UHGV virus genome: UHGV-0203498
Source of the DNA: a virus
Direction: 5' to 3' (one strand)
DNA length: 32,670 nt
This document shows, in pieces, positions 19,224 through 28,312 of this stretch. The position numbers and the translations under genes are program-made. The notes beneath the pieces are model-generated. The model saw nothing but the letters and a program-made list of their open reading frames with translations, made no database searches and was not told the origin of the DNA. Positions within the stretch are counted from its first letter, which is position 1. Every line of letters begins with the position of its first letter.

Positions 19224-21488
19224 TTAATCTTTCAAGTCATCGTCTGTCGCCGAAAGCGTGATTGGGATATCCGATTTGATAACCAAATTAGACGACCCAT
19301 ATATGGCCCCGGTGTGTGGATCTGTGTAAAAACCGAGCACGCCGCGCTCGACCATATCGTCAATTGCCTTCGTCGATGTGCCACCTTTCGCGAGTCCCGC
19401 CTGGCGGACAATTGCCGATTTACTGAATCCAGTATGATCCGGGTTATCTTCCATCAGTTTTTCCAGTGCCGCATAAAGCACTTTTTCTTTTTCTGTGCGC
19501 GGTCCGGCGGTGTTCTCTTCCTTAACTGCGGCTTTGCCCGCGGCCTTCGCCTGTTCGATAGCGAACGGTGCCAGGGCAACCGGTACGAGGTAGAGAGTCT
19601 CGTCGCGTGGCGTGGAGGCGATAGGCTTGACGTCCCAACCGGCAACCACATCGCCGAAGTCAGGCCCAGCGCTGGTGGACTGGTGGGCTTCGAACGCCTC
19701 GGACTTGCGGAGATCCACCTTCACCTTGCACTTGAGCAGGACGAAGCCGCGCGGCGCTTGCTTGATGCCGTTACGAGACTTCTCGTGGTACAGGTTGAGT
19801 TGGCCTGGCTGGTTGTCGTCTGGCTGTTCCAGGAAGAACGCAGAATCGACAGCACCATGAAGCGCGCCGGATCCGCGTGGCGTTCTGCTGCCGTTTGCAC
19901 CTTTAGCCGGGTGGTGGATGACGCCCGCGCTGCCGCCTGTATTTTCCGCAATGGCCTTCAGCGCCTTGACTACCTCGCCCATATCGCTGGCGTTGTTCTC
20001 GTCGAATGGCTTGGCATCGGCGGACCGCAGCGCGACAGTCTGGTTGAGTGAGTCGAATGCCACCAGGCCAACCGGTTCGCCATTCGCGGTGCGATTGATA
20101 AAGCTGATAACTTCGCGCAGGCCAGACTTGCTGGTGATATCCCAGCCGCGTGACTGCAGGTCTATAATGTGCAACTTGTCCAGGTCGTGCTCGTATTTGA
20201 TCTGCAATGCTTCCTTACGCTGGCTGGAGGCTTCGCCGCCTTCCGCATCGAAATAGAAGCAATGGGACTGGACGACCTTCGCACCGCCAAACGGGATACC
20301 AGCGGCAACCGCGCCCATCTGACCCAGCACGTAGAACGACTTACCGATGTTCGACTCACCGGCGAGATACCAGGTCGATTTGAAGTTAACCAGGCCTTCG
20401 ATGATCGGGTCGTGTTTACTGAACAGGGCGACCGGCTCGTTGTCCAGGTCTGCATCTGTGCATTCGCCGAACTCGTCGCCGTCACCGACCGCGTCCACGA
20501 TATGCTCGTAGCATGATTCCACTTCCTCGTCGTCCAGCCCCGGAAGGATGGCGGCGATCTGCTTACGTGACATGTTGTGCGGTTCGACGTTCAGGTGGTC
20601 CGGGATACCGATCAGACGCAGCGCCAGGTGCTGGTGTTTATTCAGTTCTGAGCAACACTCGTTACCGGTGTGCATACACTTGAAACGGATCTCGCCATCC
20701 TTAACCAGGATTGCCGTTGACCCTTCGCCACTGTGCAGGTGTTCGTTAGGACACGGCACTTCATAGCCGCGACCGGATGACAGGGGTTCAAAGCCCGCCT
20801 GGAAGCACCAGTCCAGGATGCCGTCTGCCACACCGCCGTCGCCCTGGGTCAGTTCGTGGCGTACTTCCTCTTTCTCAACTCCCAGCTTGTCAGCCAGGCG
20901 GAGCAGACGACGGACGCGGGCACGCTTGCCGTAGTGGCACTTAACGACAGCCTGCTGGTGCGGCAGGTACATAAGGCGGTTTGTGTCTTTCGTGCAATCG
21001 TCGAAAGCCACATCAGACAGGCCCAGTTGGTCTAACAACGCATACTGGACGCGGCCCAGGTCTTCCGCCGGTACAGGCTTGTCAGTGAGCACCAGGAAAC
21101 GAGCGCAACGCGTGCCACCTTTCAGCGGGTGTCGGTCGCCGGTAGTGGTGTGGAAGACGTGCTCCAGTCCCGCGTCGATGAACGCCTTACGGCAGCGGCG
21201 TAAGGTGCTGGTGTCGGTGCGGTCAATATCGAAGAACAGGATCGAGCGGTCCACCGCACTGGTCTTACGACGCAATCCGTCACGGGTATACGCCACTATG
21301 CCATCAGCCTTACGCTTGCGGCGCGCATACTCGGCTTTATCTTCCGTCTTGTTGATATGCACCGACGATATTTCTTTCGCATCTTTGATAAATTCGAAAA
21401 ATTCATCAGTGGTCATCTGGAAGTTTTCCGCCCTGGCTTTTTCGCCTTTTTTAGCGGGTTTTGTTACAGCGAATTTAATTAAGCTCAT
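19224..21488 (-). CDS. DNA primase / helicase (primase-polymerase-like N-terminal domain, zinc-binding middle region, P-loop ATPase C-terminal domain)
   Basis: N-terminal ILFFDIDRTD (hhhhDhD primase-polymerase-like motif); Cys/His cluster CPNEHLH...CMHTGNECC; Walker A AGESNIGKS and Walker B-like GLVAFDSLN. Confidence 0.8.
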   Translation of the reverse strand: MSLIKFAVTKPAKKGEKARAENFQMTTDEFFEFIKDAKEISSVHINKTEDKAEYARRKRKADGIVAYTRDGLRRKTSAVDRSILFFDIDRTDTSTLRRCRKAFIDAGLEHVFHTTTGDRHPLKGGTRCARFLVLTDKPVPAEDLGRVQYALLDQLGLSDVAFDDCTKDTNRLMYLPHQQAVVKCHYGKRARVRRLLRLADKLGVEKEEVRHELTQGDGGVADGILDWCFQAGFEPLSSGRGYEVPCPNEHLHSGEGSTAILVKDGEIRFKCMHTGNECCSELNKHQHLALRLIGIPDHLNVEPHNMSRKQIAAILPGLDDEEVESCYEHIVDAVGDGDEFGECTDADLDNEPVALFSKHDPIIEGLVNFKSTWYLAGESNIGKSFYVLGQMGAVAAGIPFGGAKVVQSHCFYFDAEGGEASSQRKEALQIKYEHDLDKLHIIDLQSRGWDITSKSGLREVISFINRTANGEPVGLVAFDSLNQTVALRSADAKPFDENNASDMGEVVKALKAIAENTGGSAGVIHHPAKGANGSRTPRGSGALHGAVDSAFFLEQPDDNQPGQLNLYHEKSRNGIKQAPRGFVLLKCKVKVDLRKSEAFEAHQSTSAGPDFGDVVAGWDVKPIASTPRDETLYLVPVALAPFAIEQAKAAGKAAVKEENTAGPRTEKEKVLYAALEKLMEDNPDHTGFSKSAIVRQAGLAKGGTSTKAIDDMVERGVLGFYTDPHTGAIYGSSNLVIKSDIPITLSATDDDLKD

Positions 21489-21498
21489 TGCCGTAGCC

Positions 21499-21828
21499 TT
21501 ACTTAGAAGTTTTATTATTGCGTACCCAGGAGCGCACTGTGCTCTGATTAATTCCGGTCAACTCGGCAATCATCGCCCATGACTTACCTTCGTCGCGCAA
21601 ACGGATAACCTGCTTTTTGTATTCTTCCATTTCTTCATTGTGTTTTTGCAGCTTGCTTGCTGCCGTGCCATTGAGCAATTCAAGCCTGGCGCGTAATTCT
21701 TTTTCGACACTGCGCAGGCGCTCGATTTCAAATAACACCGCACCAACGGCGTCGGTATAAGCCCAGGACCGGCTTGTTTCACCGCTAACAGTTTTCGTTA
21801 ACATTTCGATTGCGTCGTTTACATTCAT
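21499..21828 (-). CDS. Putative DNA-binding regulator (coiled-coil N-terminus, C-terminal helix-turn-helix)
   Basis: C-terminal KSWAMIAELTGINQSTVRSWVRNN is HTH-like. First gene of the primase operon, preceded by GAGGGAAG RBS and the palindrome GTTGGT-N5-ACCAAC (21842-21858). Confidence 0.5.
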   Translation of the reverse strand: MNVNDAIEMLTKTVSGETSRSWAYTDAVGAVLFEIERLRSVEKELRARLELLNGTAASKLQKHNEEMEEYKKQVIRLRDEGKSWAMIAELTGINQSTVRSWVRNNKTSK

Positions 21829-22033: not shown

Positions 22034-22229
22034 TCACTCCGTCGACAGGATGCAGGACGCAAACTGGAGAGGGGCAACGCAGGGGCCGGATCGAAGTGTC
22101 AGGATTCCCAACCGTGATTATATAACCAGGTCCACTACCCGAACGGGAGAACGCGTAACCTGGCAATATGTTAAGGCCACCGACGAAGTTAACTGCCGAC
22201 ACCTAAACTTAACCAATCGGAGATATACC

Positions 22230-22760
22230 ATGTTTGAGCAAATCGTAAACCTGATCACACGCGGCGTAGTAGCACTGGAAACCATCGCGAAGCATTATGA
22301 AACCGTCGGTGCTGCCGTGGACCCAAAAGCGAACGGCACAGCTAAGAAAGGCAAGGCTAAGCCGGAAACCGAAGTCGAAGACGACGATCAGGACGAAGTA
22401 GAAGATACGCCTAAAGCGAAAAAAGGCGCGGCAAAAGAAACCAAGTCTAAAGGTAAGGCTAAGAAGGAAGTCGTAGAAGATGAAGACGACGAAGCGGAAG
22501 AAGAAGCTCCGGCGAAGTCTAAGAAAGCGAAAGGCAAAGGTAAGAAAGAAGCTGACCCGCTGGCAGAAATGCGCGACGAAATCAAACAGTATGCCGCTAT
22601 TATTGCAGGCGGTGATGATGATGATGCGAACGACGAATTTGATGACCTGCTGGAATCGTATGAAATTAAATCCATCGCCAAGCTGGAAGACGACGACGTC
22701 GAAGACTTCCACAAAGATTTAAAAGAAATCGTCGAAACCTATTTCGAACTGGAAGATTAA
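22230..22760 (+). CDS. Highly acidic, lysine-patch low-complexity protein (first early gene)
   Basis: ATG at 22230 preceded by GGAG at 8-nt spacing; alternating K-rich and D/E-rich blocks (KKGKAKPETEVEDDDQDEVED..., DEDDEAEEEAPAKSKKAKGKGKK). The ORF-track start at 22050 is unlikely. Confidence 0.5.
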   Translation: MFEQIVNLITRGVVALETIAKHYETVGAAVDPKANGTAKKGKAKPETEVEDDDQDEVEDTPKAKKGAAKETKSKGKAKKEVVEDEDDEAEEEAPAKSKKAKGKGKKEADPLAEMRDEIKQYAAIIAGGDDDDANDEFDDLLESYEIKSIAKLEDDDVEDFHKDLKEIVETYFELED

Positions 22761-23060: not shown

Positions 23061-23248
23061 TGGCTATATTCTTTGTTTTATTTCGTTGCCGTATCACCGG
23101 CGACGAGCGACCGGAAATAATTAGGCATGAGAACTGGCTTTGCTGTTGGGGGAAAGCCTGCGACCTGGCTTTGACAATGAACGAAGATGCGAATCGTGCC
23201 AATGTTAAACATGATTATTACATCGCTCAATTTTCAAGGGTTGGATAA
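23060..23248 (+). CDS. Hypothetical small protein
   Basis: 62-aa ORF coupled through TAATG overlaps at both ends. Confidence 0.35.
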   Translation: MAIFFVLFRCRITGDERPEIIRHENWLCCWGKACDLALTMNEDANRANVKHDYYIAQFSRVG

Positions 23249-24678
23249 TGGCTATTAAACAAAAGCGCAAAACACAATCAGGTAGCAATACGGAACACTC
23301 ATTACTCGGGCCATCTGGATCTAAAAAATGGATGGGGTGCCCTGCCGCCCTGGTAGTTGAAAAAGATATCCCGAACGAATCCGGGCAAGCTGCGATTAAC
23401 GGTACGAGTATGCACACGGTATCGGAGGTCGTGCTAAACCGCATCATTGCCGGGGAAAAGCTGATAACCGCGAAGACGTACAAAGGGTGTTACGTCGAGA
23501 ACGAAGGTAAGGGGCCGGTAAAGGCGCACCCGAAAGCACCGAAAGGCGGCGTACTGGTCAGCGATGATATGGTGAAACAGTGCGATGCGTACATCGACCA
23601 CTGGCGACCGCTCCTGGAAGTGGCGGAGTTTGTCCAGCTTGAAATGCGCGCCGATCTGACCCGCGTCTTACACCCTGGCTTTGAGATGGACGGCAACAAG
23701 GTGAAGACGTTCGGCACCGCCGATATGGTCATGGTCATGAAGAAGACCGACGGCTCGTACATGCTGATTGTTGGCGACCTGAAGACCGGGCGACATAAGG
23801 TCGAGGCGAAAGAAAACAAACAGCTTATGTTGTATGCGCTGGGCCTGCTGCGCAAGCTGAAAACTATGTACGACATTACAACCGTGCGACTGGTTATCTT
23901 CCAGCCGTATTGCGGCGGGGCGTCGGAGTGGGATATTTCGGTAGAAGCCCTGGAGATATTCGCTAAGTTTGCGTCAAAGCGTGCTATCGCCGCCCTGGAA
24001 GCGTACGCCCGCGGCAAAAAGGGACTCACCCGTGCCGACTTCCGCCCTAGCGTTGACGCGTGCCAGTGGTGCCGATTTGCGGACCAGTGTAGTGCCCGCG
24101 CTAAGGTCGCAATCGACACGATGACACCACCAACGGCAACAGACGAAGACCTGGGCGACGACGTGAGCGTGGCGACAGAGGAAGAATGCGCCAATCATGA
24201 CCGCAATATGGCCCGCGAAGCTCGGAAAGCGGCACGACGTGCGAAGCGGGGCAAGAAGGAAGAAGCGCCAGGGGCGATGACCACGGCGGAACTGCGTAAG
24301 GCATACGAAGGTCTTGACGCAATACGCCAGCACATCAAGGCTATCGAGTCCGCAGTGTTCAAGGCCGTAATGGCGGGAGATGGTGAATCGCTGGGCCTCA
24401 AGATGGTTGCCGGTAAAGCTGGTGTCCGCAAGTGGGCGGACGAGAGCGAAGTGATTGAAATCTTCACGAAGGCCCGGATCAAGCGCGACGTGATGTACAA
24501 AGAAACATTGCTCAGTCCTACCGACGCCGAGAAGGTATTGAAGGACGAGAAACCGAAAGTGTGGGCAAAATTGTGTGATAAAATCACGCGCGCACCGGCT
24601 AAACCGGTATTAGCCCCTATCGACGACCCGCGCCCTGCGTGGTCTGAAGCTACCGACGAGGACTTAAGTAATGAATAA
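23248..24678 (+). CDS. PD-(D/E)xK nuclease of the Cas4 / RecB type with a four-Cys cluster and a ~170-aa C-terminal extension
   Basis: Nuclease motifs TADMVMV, VGDLKTGRHK and QLMLYA; Cys in WMGCPAAL plus CQWCRFADQC (putative Fe-S cluster). Confidence 0.75.
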   Translation: MAIKQKRKTQSGSNTEHSLLGPSGSKKWMGCPAALVVEKDIPNESGQAAINGTSMHTVSEVVLNRIIAGEKLITAKTYKGCYVENEGKGPVKAHPKAPKGGVLVSDDMVKQCDAYIDHWRPLLEVAEFVQLEMRADLTRVLHPGFEMDGNKVKTFGTADMVMVMKKTDGSYMLIVGDLKTGRHKVEAKENKQLMLYALGLLRKLKTMYDITTVRLVIFQPYCGGASEWDISVEALEIFAKFASKRAIAALEAYARGKKGLTRADFRPSVDACQWCRFADQCSARAKVAIDTMTPPTATDEDLGDDVSVATEEECANHDRNMAREARKAARRAKRGKKEEAPGAMTTAELRKAYEGLDAIRQHIKAIESAVFKAVMAGDGESLGLKMVAGKAGVRKWADESEVIEIFTKARIKRDVMYKETLLSPTDAEKVLKDEKPKVWAKLCDKITRAPAKPVLAPIDDPRPAWSEATDEDLSNE

Positions 24679-24913
24679 AGTATTCGCAGTCTTATTGATG
24701 TTTTTGCTAGGCGCGCTGGGATTTATCTTGCATTGCGTGCAAGGCGTGTTAATGGTGGCCTGGATGATTCGCCATCCAACCCAATGGCTGGACAATGGGT
24801 ATAGCGAAGCTGCCGTCGACTGGGTGGAGAAGAACATTGACCGCCCGCCGTTAAGCTGGATCGAGAACGCCACCAACTACGTGACACGAAATCTTTTTAA
24901 TGAAAATGCTTGA
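24671..24913 (+). CDS. Hypothetical small membrane protein
   Basis: N-terminal hydrophobic segments VFAVLLMFLLGALGFILH and VLMVAWMI; overlaps the upstream gene by 8 nt. Confidence 0.4.
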   Translation: MNKVFAVLLMFLLGALGFILHCVQGVLMVAWMIRHPTQWLDNGYSEAAVDWVEKNIDRPPLSWIENATNYVTRNLFNENA

Positions 24914-24950: not shown

Positions 24951-25003
24951 GAACGGGGTGGCTCACAATAACCCCGATACATGTGAAAATGAGGAATTGG
25001 AAA

Positions 25004-25795
25004 ATGGCTAAAGTCAACCTGAAAAATGTGCGCGTATGCTTCCTGAAAATTTGGGAGCGTGATACCCCAAAACAGGATGGGCAGAAACCGGCATACCGTG
25101 CCGTTATTCTTCTGGATAAAGAAGATCCGCAGGTGGACAAAGTGGAAGCGGCAGCGCGCGCAGTGCTCACCGACAAGCTGAAATCCGAGAAGAATGCCGA
25201 TAAGTGGATGGACCGCCACTACGCACAGGACTCTAAGGAGTGCGCCGTCCGCGACGGTGACGAGCGCGACGAAGTAACCGAAGAGTTTGAAGGCATGTTG
25301 TACATCAACGCCAAGTCGTTTAAACAGCCTAACATCCAAACGTCACTGGGCGAGAAGCAGACCGAACAGGGTCTGACCGTAGAAGGCGACGAGATCGAAG
25401 GCCAGGAGATCTACTCCGGTTGTTACTGCAACGTGTCCCTCGATATTTGGGCGTGGAACAACACCAACGGCAAAGGACTCGGTGCCGGATTGCTGGGTCT
25501 GCGCTTCCGCGAAGACGGTGATGCCTTCGGCGGTGGTGGGTCTTCTTGCACCGATGACGATCTGGACAACGACGACGAAGACGAAGCACCGCGCAAGTCT
25601 AAAAAGTCAAAACGTCGTGATGACGACGATGATGATGACAAGCCGCGCAAGTCCAAGAAATCCAAGCGCCGCGATGACGACGACGATGAGGAAGAGGAAA
25701 AACCTCGCAAACGTCGTAAGCCACGCGATGACGAAGATGAGGACGATGATGACGATGACGACGATGTAAAACCTCGCAAACGTCGCCGCCGTTAA
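25004..25795 (+). CDS. Single-stranded DNA-binding protein (gp2.5-like) with a repetitive basic/acidic C-terminal tail
   Basis: ATG at 25004 preceded by GAGGAA at 8-nt spacing. N-terminus MAKVNLKNVRVCFLKIWE resembles gp2.5-like phage SSBs. The C-terminus is built of repeats such as PRKSKKSKRRDDDDDDD. Confidence 0.55.
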   Translation: MAKVNLKNVRVCFLKIWERDTPKQDGQKPAYRAVILLDKEDPQVDKVEAAARAVLTDKLKSEKNADKWMDRHYAQDSKECAVRDGDERDEVTEEFEGMLYINAKSFKQPNIQTSLGEKQTEQGLTVEGDEIEGQEIYSGCYCNVSLDIWAWNNTNGKGLGAGLLGLRFREDGDAFGGGGSSCTDDDLDNDDEDEAPRKSKKSKRRDDDDDDDKPRKSKKSKRRDDDDDEEEEKPRKRRKPRDDEDEDDDDDDDDVKPRKRRRR

Positions 25796-25853: not shown

Positions 25854-26024
25854 ATGATTGTTAAAGCCAGCGAAGTAAAGGTCGGAATGAAGGTGTGGTC
25901 CAAATTGCTGGGCGAGTATTTCATCGTTGCCGAGATTCGCAACAACGGCGAGGAGATAACCCTTTCCGACGGTATCTTCTCCATGATCGGCAGCGCTGAC
26001 GCCGTAGTGAGGATAAAGCAATGA
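25854..26024 (+). CDS. Small hypothetical protein (56 aa) coupled to the DNA polymerase start
   Basis: ATG at 25854; its stop overlaps the polymerase ATG (ATGA). Sequence MIVKASEVKVGMKVWSKLLGEYFIVAEIRNNGEEITLSDGIFSMIGSADAVVRIKQ. Below the ORF-track size cutoff. Confidence 0.3.
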   Translation: MIVKASEVKVGMKVWSKLLGEYFIVAEIRNNGEEITLSDGIFSMIGSADAVVRIKQ

Positions 26025-28312
26025 AAGACTTCGAACGCCTGTTTCTCGACACCGAGACATTCAGCGAGGTGGACCTGAAGAAAGTCGGGGCGTACGCCTA
26101 CGCAGAACACCCATCGACCGAGATTATGATCTGCACCTACGCCATCGACGAGGGCCGCGTGCAGACATGGGACGCCACTGAATCCCCCACAATGCCGCGT
26201 GAACTGCGCAAGGCGCTCCGCCAGGTATCCCGCAAGAAAGCAAAAATCGTGATGGCTAACGGCCTCCTGTTTGACCGCCTGGTTATCAGTGAGAAGTGGG
26301 GAATCGACCTGCCGGTAAGCCAGATCGAAGACACCATGATTATGGCCTTCCGCCACGCGCTGCCAGGTAGCCTCGATATGCAGTGCCAGGTACTGGGCGT
26401 TGACGCAGAGCACGCGAAGGATAAGGCGGGTAAGGCGCTGATCAAACGGTTCTGTAAGCCTACCCCTAAGACCTACAAAATCCGCCGTTACACGCGCGAG
26501 ACGCACCCTGAAGAGTGGGCTAAATTCCTGCGCTATGCCGCGCTGGATATTGTTGCTATGCGTGAAGTCTACTGGCGCATACCAGACTGGGGCAACACGC
26601 CGAAGGAAGACGAAATCCTGCGCATCGACCAGATGATTAACGACCGAGGCTTCTATGTGGACGTTGACCTGGCGAACGCCGCGATCAAGGCGGTGCAGGC
26701 GCATAAGGAAGAATTGAAGGAAGAGGCATGGGAGCGGTTTGGCGGCAAGCTGACCGGCAACGACTTCCTGCCGATTCTGCGTGATATTGCCCCGGCGTTC
26801 ACTATTCACAACGCGCAGAAATCCACGCTGAACGACTTGCTCGAAGACCCGGACTTCCCTGATGAGGGCAAAGCGCTGATTGAGATGCGTCTCGGTGCAT
26901 CATCAACGGCATCGACTAAGTACAATCCGCTCGTCAATGGCCTGTCTGCCGATGGTCGCCGCCGTGGCTGTCTTCAGTATGGCGGGGCGAAGCGCACACT
27001 GCGTTGGGCCGGTAAAGGCTTTCAGCCTCAAAACCTGGCACGAGGCGAGTACAGCGATGACCACGAAGGGAAGATTAAACGCCGCGAGGGCGAAAGCGAC
27101 GTCTCGTTTTGGGTCCGGTCGCACATGCTCACCAACGGCATCAACTCCCTGTTACGCGGTACAGCGCACTGGGCATATGACATATCGAAGCTGACCGCCT
27201 CGACCGTTCGCGGGTGCATTATCCCTGCTAAGGGCAAGAAGTTTGTCGTAGCGGACTATTCAAACGTCGAAGGGCGCGGGCTTGCCTGGATCGCGGGCGA
27301 GAAAACTGCGCTCATGGTGTTTAAAGCCGGTCGTGATATTTATTGCGAGACAGCCGGTAAGATGTTTGGCCTCGACCCGGACTACATCAAAGCCAACCGC
27401 AAGGATTTACGCCAGATCGGCAAGGCTTGCGAGCTTGGCCTGGGCTATGGGGGTGGTGTCGCGGCGTTCTTGCAGTTCGCCAAAAACCTGGGCCTGGACC
27501 TGTACGCGATGGCGGAAGTCATGAAGGGCACATTCCCCGATCACATTTGGGCGGCGGCGAAACGCGGCTATGAGTACGCCCGCATTAACGAAGCGAAGCG
27601 CCCGCCGAAGCCTGGCAAGAAAGACGAGCGCCCAACCTACATACTGCCGAAAAACGTATGGCTGACTTGTGACGCAATCAAACGTATGTGGCGCGAGGCT
27701 CACCCGAAGACGGTCACCTTTTGGGCCGAGCTTGAGGACGCGGTGTTGTGTGCAATCCGCAATCCGGGCAAAGCATACTGGGCTGGCGCTAACGTTCGCC
27801 CGGATGGCAGAAAAGCGCTCAAGATAGTGCGCACGAAGGCGAAGCACGACCCTACCTTCGACGAGGAGCGCGACGACCCGAACGCGGCTGGGTGGTGGCT
27901 TAAAATTGAGTTGCCGTCAGGGCGCATCATGAGCTACCCTGGCATCGCGCTGTCTGTCACGACCGAGATCGACGAAGACACCGGCAAGAAGCGAACCAGT
28001 ACCCGCATCAAATACCAGGGCGAGAATCAGACGACGCGTCAGTGGGGATTCCAGTACACCTACGGCGGCAAACTTACGGAGAACATCGTACAGGCGTTGT
28101 GCCGCGATATTCTCGCATGGTCCATGCCTGGCGTTGAAGCTGCGGGGTATGAAATCGTCCTGTCGGTGCATGATGAATTGATAACTGAAGTGCCAGACAC
28201 GGATGACTACACGACTGAAGAGCTTTGCGCGCTGATGTGCGACCTGCCTATTTGGGCGAAAGGGTTCCCACTTGCCGCAGAGGGCGACATTATGTACAGG
28301 TACAGGAAGTAA
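26021..28312 (+). CDS. Family A DNA polymerase with 3'-5' proofreading exonuclease domain
   Basis: Exonuclease motifs LFLDTETFS, MANGLLFD and YAALDI; polymerase motif A ADYSNVEGRG, motif B RQIGKACELGLGYGGG, motif C SVHDELI. Confidence 0.9.
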   Translation: MKDFERLFLDTETFSEVDLKKVGAYAYAEHPSTEIMICTYAIDEGRVQTWDATESPTMPRELRKALRQVSRKKAKIVMANGLLFDRLVISEKWGIDLPVSQIEDTMIMAFRHALPGSLDMQCQVLGVDAEHAKDKAGKALIKRFCKPTPKTYKIRRYTRETHPEEWAKFLRYAALDIVAMREVYWRIPDWGNTPKEDEILRIDQMINDRGFYVDVDLANAAIKAVQAHKEELKEEAWERFGGKLTGNDFLPILRDIAPAFTIHNAQKSTLNDLLEDPDFPDEGKALIEMRLGASSTASTKYNPLVNGLSADGRRRGCLQYGGAKRTLRWAGKGFQPQNLARGEYSDDHEGKIKRREGESDVSFWVRSHMLTNGINSLLRGTAHWAYDISKLTASTVRGCIIPAKGKKFVVADYSNVEGRGLAWIAGEKTALMVFKAGRDIYCETAGKMFGLDPDYIKANRKDLRQIGKACELGLGYGGGVAAFLQFAKNLGLDLYAMAEVMKGTFPDHIWAAAKRGYEYARINEAKRPPKPGKKDERPTYILPKNVWLTCDAIKRMWREAHPKTVTFWAELEDAVLCAIRNPGKAYWAGANVRPDGRKALKIVRTKAKHDPTFDEERDDPNAAGWWLKIELPSGRIMSYPGIALSVTTEIDEDTGKKRTSTRIKYQGENQTTRQWGFQYTYGGKLTENIVQALCRDILAWSMPGVEAAGYEIVLSVHDELITEVPDTDDYTTEELCALMCDLPIWAKGFPLAAEGDIMYRYRK

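What the first reader, a model, noticed from the sequence alone, without database searches (positions are those of the whole stretch)
23248..24678. Cas4-like Fe-S nuclease with an unusually long basic/helical C-terminal extension
The nuclease core with its four-Cys cluster occupies about the first 290 aa. The remaining ~170 aa (EECANHDRNMAREARKAARRAKRGKKEE...) has no nuclease motif and looks like an added interaction or DNA-binding module, possibly taking over the role of a separate annealing or recombination partner, which is not evident nearby.
Basis: partly seen in the sequence, partly recalled or inferred. Interest (0 to 1): 0.4.

Follow-up and report, generated by a model that had tools for sequence, protein, structure and literature searches.

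The report
Ordinary phage DUF2800 nuclease, typical architecture
The gene is a standard Fe-S nuclease of a known E. coli phage genus whose "long C-terminal extension" is a normal, conserved part of its family, though that part holds an uncharacterised folded domain and an acidic tail that matches the tails of the phage's own SSB and primase-helicase.

Summary
The ORF at 23248-24678 (+), 476 aa, is real. The window is a Dhillonvirus, an E. coli siphophage (about 92% nt identity to known isolates). The protein is 96% identical to a deposited "exonuclease".

Pfam DUF2800 (PF10926) matches aa 17-463 over its whole model (1-368/368). The C-terminal region is therefore part of the family, not an add-on. 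All 150 diverse representatives examined carry it. Only the charged linker is longer and more basic than usual (74 vs a median 46 aa).

An annealing partner is present: the next large gene is a gp2.5/Enc34-type SSB-annealase, followed by PolA. This is the known duf2800-gp2.5-polA module.

A 2026 preprint names Bas14_0045 (B14T), from Dhillonvirus Bas14 and numbered identically (D177/K179), as the nuclease trigger of retron type IX. I infer it is the ortholog; its sequence was not retrieved.

Two points go beyond the finding:
- The acidic tail (ATDEDLSNE*) matches the helicase-primase C-terminus (ATDDDLKD*) and an SSB motif (CTDDDL). Across 26 phage lineages the nuclease tail co-varies with its own SSB tail, and this held in an independent set of loci.

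Verdict: an ordinary, known gene. The tail match suggests a testable replisome-docking hypothesis.

The parts
23248..24678 (+). Whole ORF, 476 aa: DUF2800 / PHROG 69 phage Fe-S PD-(D/E)XK nuclease. Its ATG overlaps the upstream stop (TAATG). Its last 8 nt overlap the next small ORF.
23296..24123 (+). Nuclease core, aa 17-292. Catalytic motifs: D159 (23722-23724), D177-L-K179 (23776-23784), Q192xxxY196 (23821-23835).
   Evidence: These residues are invariant in alignment A1. PF12705 matches aa 108-281. Foldseek top hits are ACE1 (Cas4 family), AdnA, EXO5, SSO0001 Cas4 and AddAB, E 1e-6 to 1e-4. In B14T, D177A/K179A abolishes activity.
23338..23340 (+). C31, the first ligand of the predicted 4Fe-4S cluster.
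   Evidence: >=90% conserved in A1; position confirmed.
24061..24090 (+). C272-x2-C275-x5-C281, the other three Fe-S cysteines (CQWCRFADQC).
   Evidence: Invariant in A1.
24133..24162 (+). Internal acidic motif TATDEDLGDD (aa 296-305) at the start of the linker. Predicted disordered.
   Evidence: pLDDT <50 for aa 298-310. The family consensus at this position is 'F.DL'. An acidic-hydrophobic motif occurs in the linker of 77% of 150 representatives.
24202..24261 (+). Lineage-specific basic helix in the linker, aa 319-338 (RNMAREARKAARRAKRGKKE).
   Evidence: AF2 predicts a helix at 319-335 with only moderate pLDDT. Absent in 55%-identical relatives such as P0045. Linker K+R is 0.19 against a family median of 0.09.
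24283..24633 (+). Conserved C-terminal alpha/beta domain, aa 346-462. Invariant K385. Near-invariant G377, V387, G389, G392, R394, W396, Y417, S423, P424, E428 and R462.
24634..24675 (+). Acidic C-terminal tail, aa 463-476 (PAWSEATDEDLSNE).
   Evidence: The tail is net negative in 99% of 150 representatives. It co-varies with the tail of the same phage's SSB.
24983..25795 (+). Neighbouring Enc34/gp2.5-type SSB and ssDNA-annealing protein; the likely start is the ATG at 25004. It carries CTDDDLDND (25547-25573) just after the OB fold, then alternating acidic and basic blocks.
   Evidence: PF10991, E 7.6e-32; phrog_112, E 4.6e-53.
19224..21488 (-). Replicative helicase-primase. Its extreme C-terminus, SATDDDLKD* (19227-19253), carries the same motif.
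   Evidence: phrog_3228 and PF13481.
26021..28312 (+). Family A DNA polymerase, the third member of the conserved nuclease-SSB-PolA module and the candidate docking hub.
   Evidence: PF00476 and phrog_17. Synteny holds in most of the fetched loci.

Best explanation
Shown:
- The ORF is the Dhillonvirus member of the DUF2800/PHROG 69 family of phage nucleases, which have a Cas4/AddB/RecB-type Fe-S PD-(D/E)XK fold.
- It is the first gene of the widespread nuclease / gp2.5-like SSB-annealase / PolA replication-recombination module.
- It has four parts: a catalytic core (aa 17-292); a disordered, variable charged linker (aa 293-345) that opens with an acidic ATDEDL motif; a conserved, confidently folded ~115-aa C-terminal domain (aa 346-462); and an acidic tail ending ATDEDLSNE.
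- Everything except the length and basicity of the linker is the family norm.

Inferred mechanism:
- The core cuts or resects DNA ends or branched ssDNA/dsDNA junctions. This produces ssDNA for the adjacent gp2.5-like annealase during recombination-dependent replication or repair.
- The acidic-hydrophobic motifs at the linker start and the C-terminus act as short docking motifs. The phage's SSB and helicase-primase carry the same motif, so the three proteins would compete for or take turns at one receptor site.
- The PolA is the most plausible receptor, by analogy with T7 gp2.5 and gp4 tails binding gp5. The SSB's own groove is the alternative.
- The conserved C-domain, with its invariant Lys and near-invariant Arg, Trp and Tyr, most likely binds DNA or a partner protein and positions the nuclease.
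For: Family membership and architecture:
- Full-length Pfam match of 226.5 bits against a cut-off of 21; phrog_69 at E 1.8e-106.
- 96% identity to Escherichia phage HH3 'exonuclease'.
- 1392 phage records match, 1226 of them at >=80% coverage and down to ~21% identity.
- 9844 representatives at 50% clustering reach E<=1e-3, most with separate matches to the core and to aa ~345-470.

Fold:
- Foldseek hits to ACE1, AdnA, EXO5, Cas4 and AddAB.

Nuclease activity in B14T:
- D177A/K179A abolishes retron IX triggering. A fragment trimmed to residues 18-295 cleaves msDNA in vitro.
- Bas14 is a Dhillonvirus, and all ~156 Dhillonvirus records are >=80% identical to this protein. Orthology is inferred from this and from the shared residue numbering.

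Module:
- Published as duf2800-gp2.5-polA. A gp2.5-like protein beside the nuclease in Staphylococcus phage phi12 has annealing activity in vivo.
- Nuclease-SSB adjacency was seen in nearly all of the 29 other loci fetched, with PolA close by in most of them.

C-domain:
- pLDDT 95.9, with 12 invariant or near-invariant residues.

Tails:
- T[DE][DE][DE]L occurs exactly four times in the six-frame translation: twice in the nuclease, once in the SSB and once in the helicase-primase. A within-ORF residue shuffle expects 0.096, and none of 2000 shuffles reached 4.
- The last 3/4/5 residues of the nuclease match its own SSB better than other phages' SSBs. Discovery set, n=15: p = 0.00025 / 0.0028 / 0.0021.
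- Independent replication set, n=11, with the same anchored test fixed in advance: p = 0.0055 / 0.031 / 0.026.
- Combined, n=26: p <= 3e-4.
- Control against the PolA C-terminus: p = 0.39-0.51.
- Examples: Aeromonas LAh_7 ..GYWDDDEI* vs ..SDWDDDEI*; Chivirus PK5 ..DDEDDDEV* (nuclease)..DWEDEV* (SSB)..DDEDEV* (primase).

T7 precedent:
Against: - No physical interaction was tested, and the receptor is unknown.
- All these tails are acidic, so part of the similarity is compositional. The floating-window test was only marginal in the discovery set (p 0.05-0.09).
- The anchored test was designed after seeing that set, although it then replicated on new loci.
- Some lineages have non-acidic nuclease tails (Vibrio phages 489E54-1, 103E44.1 and K453).
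- In this phage the SSB motif is internal and is followed by a long mixed-charge extension ending in basic residues.
- The polarity and natural substrate of the nuclease are not established. B14T was shown to cut msDNA endonucleolytically near unpaired bases, not to resect ends.
- The role of the C-domain rests only on conservation and a predicted structure. Coordinates and PAE were not available to check where the conserved residues lie.
- Bas14 escaper phages with truncations are viable, so the gene is not essential under laboratory conditions.
Confidence: 0.6

Rival explanations
1. The acidic motifs are cis-acting DNA mimics that autoinhibit or tune the nuclease's own DNA binding, much as the gp2.5 tail occupies gp2.5's ssDNA groove. 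The C-domain is a DNA-binding or processivity clamp. There is no shared docking receptor, and the resemblance to the SSB and primase tails reflects the same electrostatic trick evolving in each protein.
For: Tails are net negative in 99% of family members. The Enc34 SSB tail inserts into a neighbouring molecule's groove, and removing it changes DNA specificity. The C-domain has an invariant Lys and near-invariant Arg, Trp and Tyr. The tail is modelled as a short helix at moderate confidence next to the C-domain. The floating-window similarity was marginal in the discovery set.
Against: Generic DNA mimicry does not predict lineage-specific identity of the last 3-5 residues between nuclease, SSB and primase within one phage, for example DEV/DEV/DEV, DLV/DLV and WDDDEI/WDDDEI. 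That signal is significant and replicated, and it is absent for the PolA C-terminus control.
Confidence: 0.25
2. One reading: the C-terminal ~170 aa is an extra module added in this phage, and it takes over the job of an absent annealing or recombination partner.
For: The region has no nuclease motif and contains a basic helix that could contact DNA.
Against: The region is constitutive in DUF2800. A gp2.5/Enc34-type SSB-annealase is encoded ~300 nt downstream and is syntenic across phyla. The C-domain shows no sequence or fold similarity to any annealase or other solved protein. The basic helix is lineage-specific and dispensable in close relatives.
Confidence: 0.03
3. The C-terminal region is intrinsically disordered and has no specific function, as the retron IX preprint describes for B14T.
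For: The preprint calls it 'predicted C-terminal disordered region', and the purified protein was trimmed to residues 18-295. The linker at aa 298-310 has pLDDT <50.
Against: AF2 with a 38-sequence alignment gives pLDDT 95.9 for aa 343-476 and 87-97 for the same residues in the full-length model. Twelve positions are invariant or >=90% conserved across relatives that are ~30% identical overall. The Pfam and PHROG models include it. Proteolytic loss is expected from a cleavable linker and does not show that the distal domain is unfolded.
Confidence: 0.05
4. The long ORF is an artefact: two genes fused by a sequencing error or an unrecognised frameshift.
For: None found. The low-complexity linker is where such an error would be hidden.
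Against: The same 465-476-aa ORF is present in ~150 independently sequenced Dhillonvirus genomes. The two-domain single ORF persists in phages of Proteobacteria, Firmicutes and Bacteroidetes. One Pfam model spans both halves.
Confidence: 0.01

Closest known systems
Bas14_0045 'B14T' of Escherichia phage TheodorHerzl (Dhillonvirus), trigger of retron type IX (bioRxiv 10.64898/2026.07.14.737667)
   Same: Same genus and same DUF2800 family, and the residue numbering coincides (D177/K179 catalytic, nuclease domain 18-295), so I infer orthology. It is an active nuclease, and its catalytic residues are needed to trigger the retron.
   Different: I did not retrieve the Bas14 sequence, so exact identity is unknown; it is inferred to be >=80%. 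The preprint treats the C-terminal region as disordered, whereas here it is predicted to contain a folded, conserved domain plus docking-type motifs.
Pfam DUF2800 (PF10926) / PHROG 69 'exonuclease', within the duf2800-gp2.5-polA module (Steczkiewicz 2012 and 2021; Lopes 2010)
   Same: Full-length HMM match, the same synteny, and the same catalytic and Fe-S residues.
   Different: The linker is ~28 aa longer and about twice as basic as the family median. Total length is at the 95th percentile.
Cas4 / AddB / AdnA / EXO5 Fe-S PD-(D/E)XK nucleases
   Same: The fold of the N-terminal 290 aa, the arrangement of one N-terminal Cys plus CX2CX5C, and the RecB-type motifs.
   Different: No Pfam Cas_Cas4 match, and only a weak PADLOC Cas4 hit (18.8 bits). 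No CRISPR context and no fused helicase domain. It has an extra C-terminal domain that none of those solved structures contains.
T7 replisome tail logic: the acidic C-terminal tails of gp2.5 (SSB) and gp4 (helicase-primase) dock on the gp5 polymerase
   Same: A gp2.5-type SSB, a helicase-primase and a family A polymerase are present. SSB and helicase-primase share an acidic tail motif ending in a hydrophobic residue, and primase and SSB tails co-vary (p 0.0004-0.0007). One search gives the T7 statement as quoted in the Enc34 paper; the gp4 tail details are from my own knowledge of the Richardson-laboratory literature.
   Different: Here a nuclease carries the same tail, and twice. To my knowledge this has not been described for T7 gp6 or for DUF2800. 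No binding has been shown.
Lambda Exo-Red beta and RecE-RecT exonuclease-annealase pairs
   Same: A PD-(D/E)XK nuclease is encoded next to an ssDNA-annealing protein. Some annotators even label the DUF2800 gene 'RecE'.
   Different: Different nuclease subfamily (Fe-S, RecB-like) and different annealase superfamily (gp2.5 OB fold). In lambda the annealase's C-terminal domain binds the exonuclease; here the nuclease carries the candidate docking element. 5'-3' resection has not been demonstrated.

Membership tests
DUF2800 (PF10926) / PHROG 69 | Full-length HMM match above the curated threshold | tested here: met
   226.5 bits against a cut-off of 21; aa 17-463 match model positions 1-368 of 368. 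phrog_69 at E 1.8e-106.
DUF2800 (PF10926) / PHROG 69 | The C-terminal domain belongs to the family model | tested here: met
   aa 343-476 alone score 72.1 bits on model positions 253-368 and match phrog_69 positions 345-475 at E 1.1e-32. 150 of 150 representatives have it.
DUF2800 (PF10926) / PHROG 69 | Gene context: followed by a DUF2815/gp2.5-like SSB and a family A polymerase | tested here: met
   for the window. The SSB sits next to the nuclease in nearly all other fetched loci, and PolA is close by in most. Published in PMC8093625.
RecB-family PD-(D/E)XK nuclease | Catalytic motifs D, (D/E)xK and QxxxY | tested here: met
   D159, D177, K179, Q192 and Y196 are invariant in A1. PF12705 at E 2.4e-8. 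D177A/K179A is inactive in B14T.
RecB-family PD-(D/E)XK nuclease | Metal-dependent DNA cleavage by this protein | not testable with these tools
   Shown only for B14T of Bas14 in a preprint.
Cas4 family (Fe-S nucleases of CRISPR adaptation) | Four-cysteine Fe-S arrangement (1 N-terminal Cys + CX2CX5C) | tested here: met
   C31, C272, C275 and C281 are conserved. The cluster itself has not been demonstrated.
Cas4 family (Fe-S nucleases of CRISPR adaptation) | Match to the Cas4 family profile | tested here: not met
   No Pfam Cas_Cas4 hit at E<=0.01. The PADLOC Cas4 model gives only 18.8 bits, E 4.3e-4. Fold-level similarity only.
Cas4 family (Fe-S nucleases of CRISPR adaptation) | CRISPR-cas genomic context | tested here: not met
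   The gene lies in a lytic phage replication module.
AddB/AdnA/RecB end-resection machines | Nuclease domain fused to (pseudo)helicase domains | tested here: not met
   No helicase domain in the 476-aa protein. Similarity is limited to the nuclease domain.
T7-type acidic-tail replisome docking | Acidic C-terminal tail with a hydrophobic residue, shared by SSB and helicase-primase | tested here: met
   ATDEDLSNE* (nuclease), ATDDDLKD* (helicase-primase), CTDDDLDND (SSB). Co-variation across 26 lineages.
T7-type acidic-tail replisome docking | The tail physically binds the polymerase or another common receptor | not testable with these tools
   No multimer prediction or binding assay was available.
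Exonuclease-annealase (SynExo-type) recombination pair | Adjacent ssDNA-annealing protein | tested here: met
   phrog_112 'Gp2.5-like ssDNA binding protein and ssDNA annealing protein', E 4.6e-53. In vivo annealing has been shown for the phi12 homolog.
Exonuclease-annealase (SynExo-type) recombination pair | Processive 5'-3' dsDNA end resection | not testable with these tools
   Only endonucleolytic msDNA cleavage has been reported for B14T.

The most novel reading that the evidence does not exclude
The DUF2800 C-terminal half is a replisome-coupling device that has not been described.
- It consists of an orphan-fold domain plus two acidic-hydrophobic short linear motifs.
- These motifs co-evolve with the tails of the phage's own gp2.5-type SSB and helicase-primase.
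- A recombination or repair nuclease would therefore plug into the same docking site, probably on PolA, that organises the T7-type replisome.
- This would extend the T7 'tail exchange' principle to a nuclease in well over a thousand sequenced phages (1392-1773 matching records in the phage collection searched).
- It could also govern how the nuclease meets immune sensors such as retron IX.
Probability: 0.4. Interest if true: 0.5.

Novelty: already known. Interest (0 to 1): 0.27.

Why it matters
As written, the finding does not matter much. It describes the normal architecture of a very common phage nuclease family in a well-sampled phage genus, and its premise of a missing annealing partner is wrong.

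What could matter is the uncharacterised half of the protein.
- DUF2800 nucleases occur in 1392-1773 records of the phage collection searched, from phages of Proteobacteria, Firmicutes and Bacteroidetes.
- They sit next to a gp2.5-like SSB-annealase and, in most of the loci inspected, at the head of a replication module with a PolA.
- One of them has just been shown to trigger a retron defence system.
- Their conserved C-terminal domain has no structural relative and no assigned function.
- The tail match to the SSB and helicase-primase gives a concrete, cheap hypothesis for how the nuclease is recruited to the replisome.

Tried and rejected
- The search for related loci with alignments A1 and A2 failed, because no stretch was conserved enough. 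I built the comparative set from the phage collection instead.
- The afdb50 fold library was unavailable. BFVD was used and returned significant hits (E <= 0.001) only to DUF2800 C-termini, plus weak matches to small phage proteins and actinophage RecB-like exonucleases.
- A sequence search of the full protein and a profile search of the C-domain against the PDB gave nothing or chance-level hits.
- NCBIfam has no model for the nuclease or the SSB. PADLOC gave only weak DruK and Cas4 core matches.
- The floating-window tail similarity test was marginal in the discovery set (p 0.05-0.09). I then used a C-terminus-anchored test. Because that was post hoc, I repeated it on 11 new loci.
- I looked for relatives that lack the C-domain, to see whether they also lack the SSB/PolA context. 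Two of three 'partial' tblastn hits turned out to have the C-domain and the SSB. Only Bcep1 gp21 lacks a recognisable C-domain and acidic tail, and it has no PolA nearby. This is a single case and proves nothing.
- Presence of PolA does not cleanly predict an acidic nuclease tail (Vibrio phages).
- I considered and rejected a frameshift or fusion artefact and a role as a substitute annealase (see the rival explanations).
- I could not inspect model coordinates or PAE, so interdomain packing and the location of the conserved residues remain unknown.
Full report
**Observation**

The window encodes one uninterrupted 476-aa ORF at 23248-24678 on the + strand. Its ATG overlaps the stop of the upstream small ORF (TAATG). 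Its last 8 nt overlap the next small ORF, which is typical operon packing.

The cysteines are at positions 31, 81, 112, 222, 272, 275, 281, 314 and 443. In an alignment of 38 diverse relatives (A1):
- C272, C275 and C281 are invariant, and C31 is >=90% conserved. This is the Cas4/AddB-type arrangement of one N-terminal Cys plus CX2CX5C.
- The RecB-type catalytic residues D159, D177, K179, Q192 and Y196 are also invariant.

**Identity**

- The DNA around the gene is ~92% identical to ~150 Escherichia phages of the genus Dhillonvirus.
- The protein is 96% identical to 'exonuclease [Escherichia phage HH3]', the representative of a cluster of 552 sequences.
- Pfam DUF2800 (PF10926) matches aa 17-463 over the entire model, positions 1-368 of 368, at 226.5 bits. 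PDDEXK_1 matches aa 108-281.
- PHROG 69 'exonuclease' matches aa 4-475.
- The AlphaFold2 model (pLDDT 87.5, pTM 0.76) has as its best solved relatives ACE1 (a Cas4-family protein), the AdnA nuclease domain, human EXO5, SSO0001 Cas4, MGME1, AddAB, RecE and Dna2.
- There is no Pfam Cas_Cas4 hit, and the PADLOC Cas4 match is weak at 18.8 bits. 'Cas4-like' therefore holds at the level of fold and cysteine pattern, not of family membership.

**Is the C-terminal region unusual?**

No.
- The last 134 aa alone match DUF2800 positions 253-368 at E 6e-20 and PHROG 69 positions 345-475 at E 1e-32.
- A tblastn search of the phage collection finds 1392 records. Of these, 1226 cover >=80% of the query, down to ~21% identity. 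They include phages of Staphylococcus, Streptococcus, Bacillus, Bacteroides, Burkholderia, Rhodobacter and others.
- A search of 1.84 billion cluster representatives finds 9844 family members. Most show two matched stretches, the core and aa ~345-470.
- Of 150 representatives aligned to the family HMM, all have the C-terminal domain. Median length is 419 aa (5-95%: 391-476).
- The segment between the last Fe-S cysteine and the start of the C-domain is 74 aa here against a median of 46, and is about twice as basic (K+R 0.19 against 0.09).
- The quoted basic stretch (aa 319-338) lies in this variable linker. Relatives at 55% identity reduce the linker to five residues.

**Is an annealing partner missing?**

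No.
- The next large gene (24983/25004-25795) is an Enc34/gp2.5-type SSB (PF10991, E 7.6e-32). It belongs to phrog_112, 'Gp2.5-like ssDNA binding protein and ssDNA annealing protein'.
- It is followed by a family A polymerase at 26021-28312. A helicase-primase is encoded divergently at 19224-21488.
- This is the published duf2800-gp2.5-polA module (PMC8093625). The gp2.5-like protein next to the equivalent nuclease in Staphylococcus phage phi12 has annealing activity in vivo (PMC2896510).
- I saw the nuclease-SSB pair in nearly all of the other phage loci fetched, and PolA close by in most of them. In Bcep1 the neighbouring gene is only weakly gp2.5-like, and in Vibrio phage K453 the annotated SSB did not match my SSB profile.

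**Experimental knowledge**

A July 2026 preprint (10.64898/2026.07.14.737667) identifies Bas14_0045 ('B14T') as the trigger of retron type IX.
- Bas14 is the Dhillonvirus TheodorHerzl.
- B14T is a DUF2800 protein. D177A/K179A abolishes triggering, and the numbering is the same as here.
[quoted passage not shown] Escaper phages carry missense or truncating mutations.
- The purified protein was trimmed to residues 18-295 yet remained active. This supports the domain boundary and shows the core is catalytically self-sufficient.
- The preprint describes the C-terminal region as disordered.
- I did not retrieve the Bas14 sequence. Orthology is inferred from the genus, the family and the coincident numbering.

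**What the C-terminal half contains**

AF2 with a 38-sequence alignment gives the following:
- pLDDT <50 only for aa 1-13 and 298-310;
- a moderately confident helix at 319-335;
- high confidence (87-97) for aa ~346-465;
- pLDDT 95.9 for aa 343-476 modelled alone.

The predicted fold is a helix, then a 27-residue helix, a beta-hairpin, four short helices and two further strands.

Conservation in this domain equals that of the active site. K385 is invariant. G377, V387, G389, G392, R394, W396, Y417, S423, P424, E428 and R462 are >=90% conserved.

No relative was found outside the family:
- no Pfam family other than DUF2800 matches;
- no PDB chain matches by profile;
- in BFVD the significant matches (E <= 0.001) are all to the C-termini of DUF2800 proteins.

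The domain is therefore family-specific, most likely folded and functionally constrained, and of unknown function. The Lys, Arg, Trp and Tyr content of its conserved positions suggests nucleic-acid or partner binding. This is inference.

**Shared tail motif**

A six-frame scan for T[DE][DE][DE]L finds exactly four sites:
- nuclease aa 298 (TATDEDLGDD, at the start of the linker);
- the nuclease C-terminus (EATDEDLSNE*);
- the SSB, just after its OB fold (SCTDDDLDND);
- the helicase-primase C-terminus (SATDDDLKD*).

Shuffling residues within each of 43 ORFs expects 0.096 sites, and none of 2000 shuffles reached four. The pattern was defined after the fact.

The same logic recurs in distant phages:

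| Phage | Nuclease tail | SSB tail | Primase tail |
|---|---|---|---|
| Staphylococcus tp310-2 | ..AEDDFDKL* | ..AEDDFDELDTDDEDFL* | not examined |
| Bordetella vB_BbrP_003 | ..VEDLV* | ..AADLV* | not examined |
| Chivirus PK5 | ..DDEDDDEV* | ..DWEDEV* | ..DDEDEV* |
| BcepNazgul | ..ADDGL* | ..DNGGL* | ..GCGL* |
| Kagunavirus LM02P1 | ..VTEEDLK* | internal, ..SVNDLEDD.. | ..VTEEDLE* |
| Aeromonas LAh_7 | ..GYWDDDEI* | ..SDWDDDEI* | not examined |
| Pectobacterium MA12 | ..NMDDDL* | ..DDEDDL* | not examined |

**Statistics on the tails**

The test asks whether a nuclease tail resembles its own phage's SSB tail more than other phages' SSB tails. Partners were permuted among loci.

| Test | Set | n | p |
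|---|---|---|---|
| Floating window, nuclease vs SSB | discovery | 15 | 0.05-0.09 |
| Anchored, last 3/4/5 aa, nuclease vs SSB | discovery | 15 | 0.00025 / 0.0028 / 0.0021 |
| Anchored, primase vs SSB | discovery | 9 | 0.0004-0.0007 |
| Anchored, nuclease vs primase | discovery | 9 | 0.014-0.025 |
| Control, nuclease vs PolA C-terminus | discovery | 13 | 0.39-0.51 |
| Anchored, last 3/4/5 aa, nuclease vs SSB | replication | 11 | 0.0055 / 0.031 / 0.026 |
| Floating window, nuclease vs SSB | replication | 11 | 0.003-0.004 |
| Anchored, nuclease vs SSB | combined | 26 | <= 3e-4 |

- The floating-window test was weak in the discovery set because all tails are acidic.
- The anchored test was chosen after seeing the discovery data. 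I therefore fetched 12 further loci from other genera, kept the 11 whose SSB was confirmed by profile, and repeated the same test.
- Related loci in the set make the permutation conservative rather than liberal.
- Family-wide, the nuclease tail is net negative in 99% of representatives and has a hydrophobic residue in its last three positions in 83%. An acidic-hydrophobic motif is also present at the start of the linker in 77%.

**Interpretation**

- Shown: the family, architecture, synteny, conservation, predicted fold, and tail co-variation.
- Inferred: the acidic-hydrophobic motifs are docking elements for a receptor shared with the SSB and helicase-primase.
- The precedent is T7. [quoted passage not shown] From my own knowledge of the Richardson-laboratory literature, the gp4 tail uses the same polymerase patches.
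- The Enc34 paper also shows the SSB tail lying in a neighbouring SSB's groove, so the SSB itself is an alternative receptor.
- A rival reading is that the tails are cis-acting DNA mimics without a common receptor. That explains the acidity but not the lineage-specific identity of the terminal residues.
- Neither reading could be tested physically here. I also could not inspect model coordinates to see whether the C-domain packs on the active site.

**Verdict**

The modular layout and an interaction role are plausible. The claims of unusual length and a missing annealase are wrong.
- The gene is an already known, ordinary member of DUF2800, and a near-identical protein from the same genus has been studied experimentally.
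- Residual interest lies in the unexplored C-terminal domain and in the replicated tail co-variation. These give a concrete docking hypothesis for a very widespread phage module.

Noticed in passing
window 24139, 24652, 25550 (+) and 19247 (-): T[DE][DE][DE]L occurs exactly four times in the six-frame translation, all in replication proteins: twice in the nuclease, once in the SSB and once at the helicase-primase C-terminus. A within-ORF shuffle expects 0.096 occurrences.
   Followed up: yes
window 25574-25792 (SSB aa ~198-270): After its acidic motif the SSB continues with ~70 aa of alternating acidic and basic blocks (PRKSKKSKRR / DDDDDDD, repeated) and ends in basic PRKRRRR*. Jerseyvirus and Kagunavirus SSBs likewise end ..PRRERRRNR* and ..PRRERRRR*. 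This is unusual for gp2.5-type SSBs, whose tails normally end acidic. TRF sees a short 9-nt repeat at 25726-25766. The nuclease linker has a similar 'acidic motif then basic stretch' order.
   Followed up: partly
window 24671-24913 (+): An 80-aa ORF between the nuclease and the SSB overlaps the nuclease stop by 8 nt. It matches phrog_11211 (E 1.9e-51, unknown function) and has a strongly hydrophobic N-terminus (MNKVFAVLLMFLLGALGFILHCVQGVLMVAWMI), so it is probably a small membrane protein inside a replication operon.
   Followed up: no
window 21499-21828 (-): This 109-aa ORF is annotated in phage JLBYU60 as 'putative DNA recombination nuclease inhibitor gamma protein'. Here NCBIfam gives only sub-threshold HTH / sigma-70 region-4-like matches (20.6 bits against a cut-off of 42.9). 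The Gam annotation looks doubtful, and a small transcription regulator seems more likely.
   Followed up: partly
window 22050-22760 (+): An ORF encodes a very highly charged K/E/D-rich protein (..KKGKAKPETEVEDDDQDEVEDTPKAKKGAAKETKSKGKAKKEVVEDEDDEAEEE..) just upstream of the nuclease operon. No Pfam-independent annotation was found and there is no NCBIfam hit. The true start is probably internal (MFEQIVNL..).
   Followed up: no
bioRxiv 10.64898/2026.07.14.737667 against models m847516b229b2 and maa63c26d7dd1 (window 24283-24633): The retron IX preprint describes the region after the nuclease domain of B14T as disordered. AF2 with a family alignment predicts a confidently folded domain at aa 346-462 (pLDDT ~96). 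The trimming to residues 18-295 seen during purification may reflect cleavage of the linker rather than disorder of the whole C-terminus.
   Followed up: partly
L028:3444-4697 (Burkholderia phage Bcep1 gp21): A divergent DUF2800-like nuclease of 417 aa. Its C-terminus does not match the C-domain profile and is not acidic. Its neighbour is only weakly gp2.5-like (E 6e-8), and no PolA is nearby. This may be a variant of the module without replisome coupling.
   Followed up: partly
L023, L024, L025 (Vibrio phages 489E54-1, 103E44.1, K453): These DUF2800 nucleases have non-acidic C-terminal tails (..GTFGKVSK*, ..GVFGDITQ*, ..ERFKSVSR*). Their SSB-like neighbours are much longer (317-361 aa). They are exceptions to the shared acidic-tail pattern.
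   Followed up: no
protein P0136 (758 aa): A family representative in which the DUF2800 match starts at residue 353, so the nuclease is fused to an unidentified ~350-aa N-terminal region.
   Followed up: no
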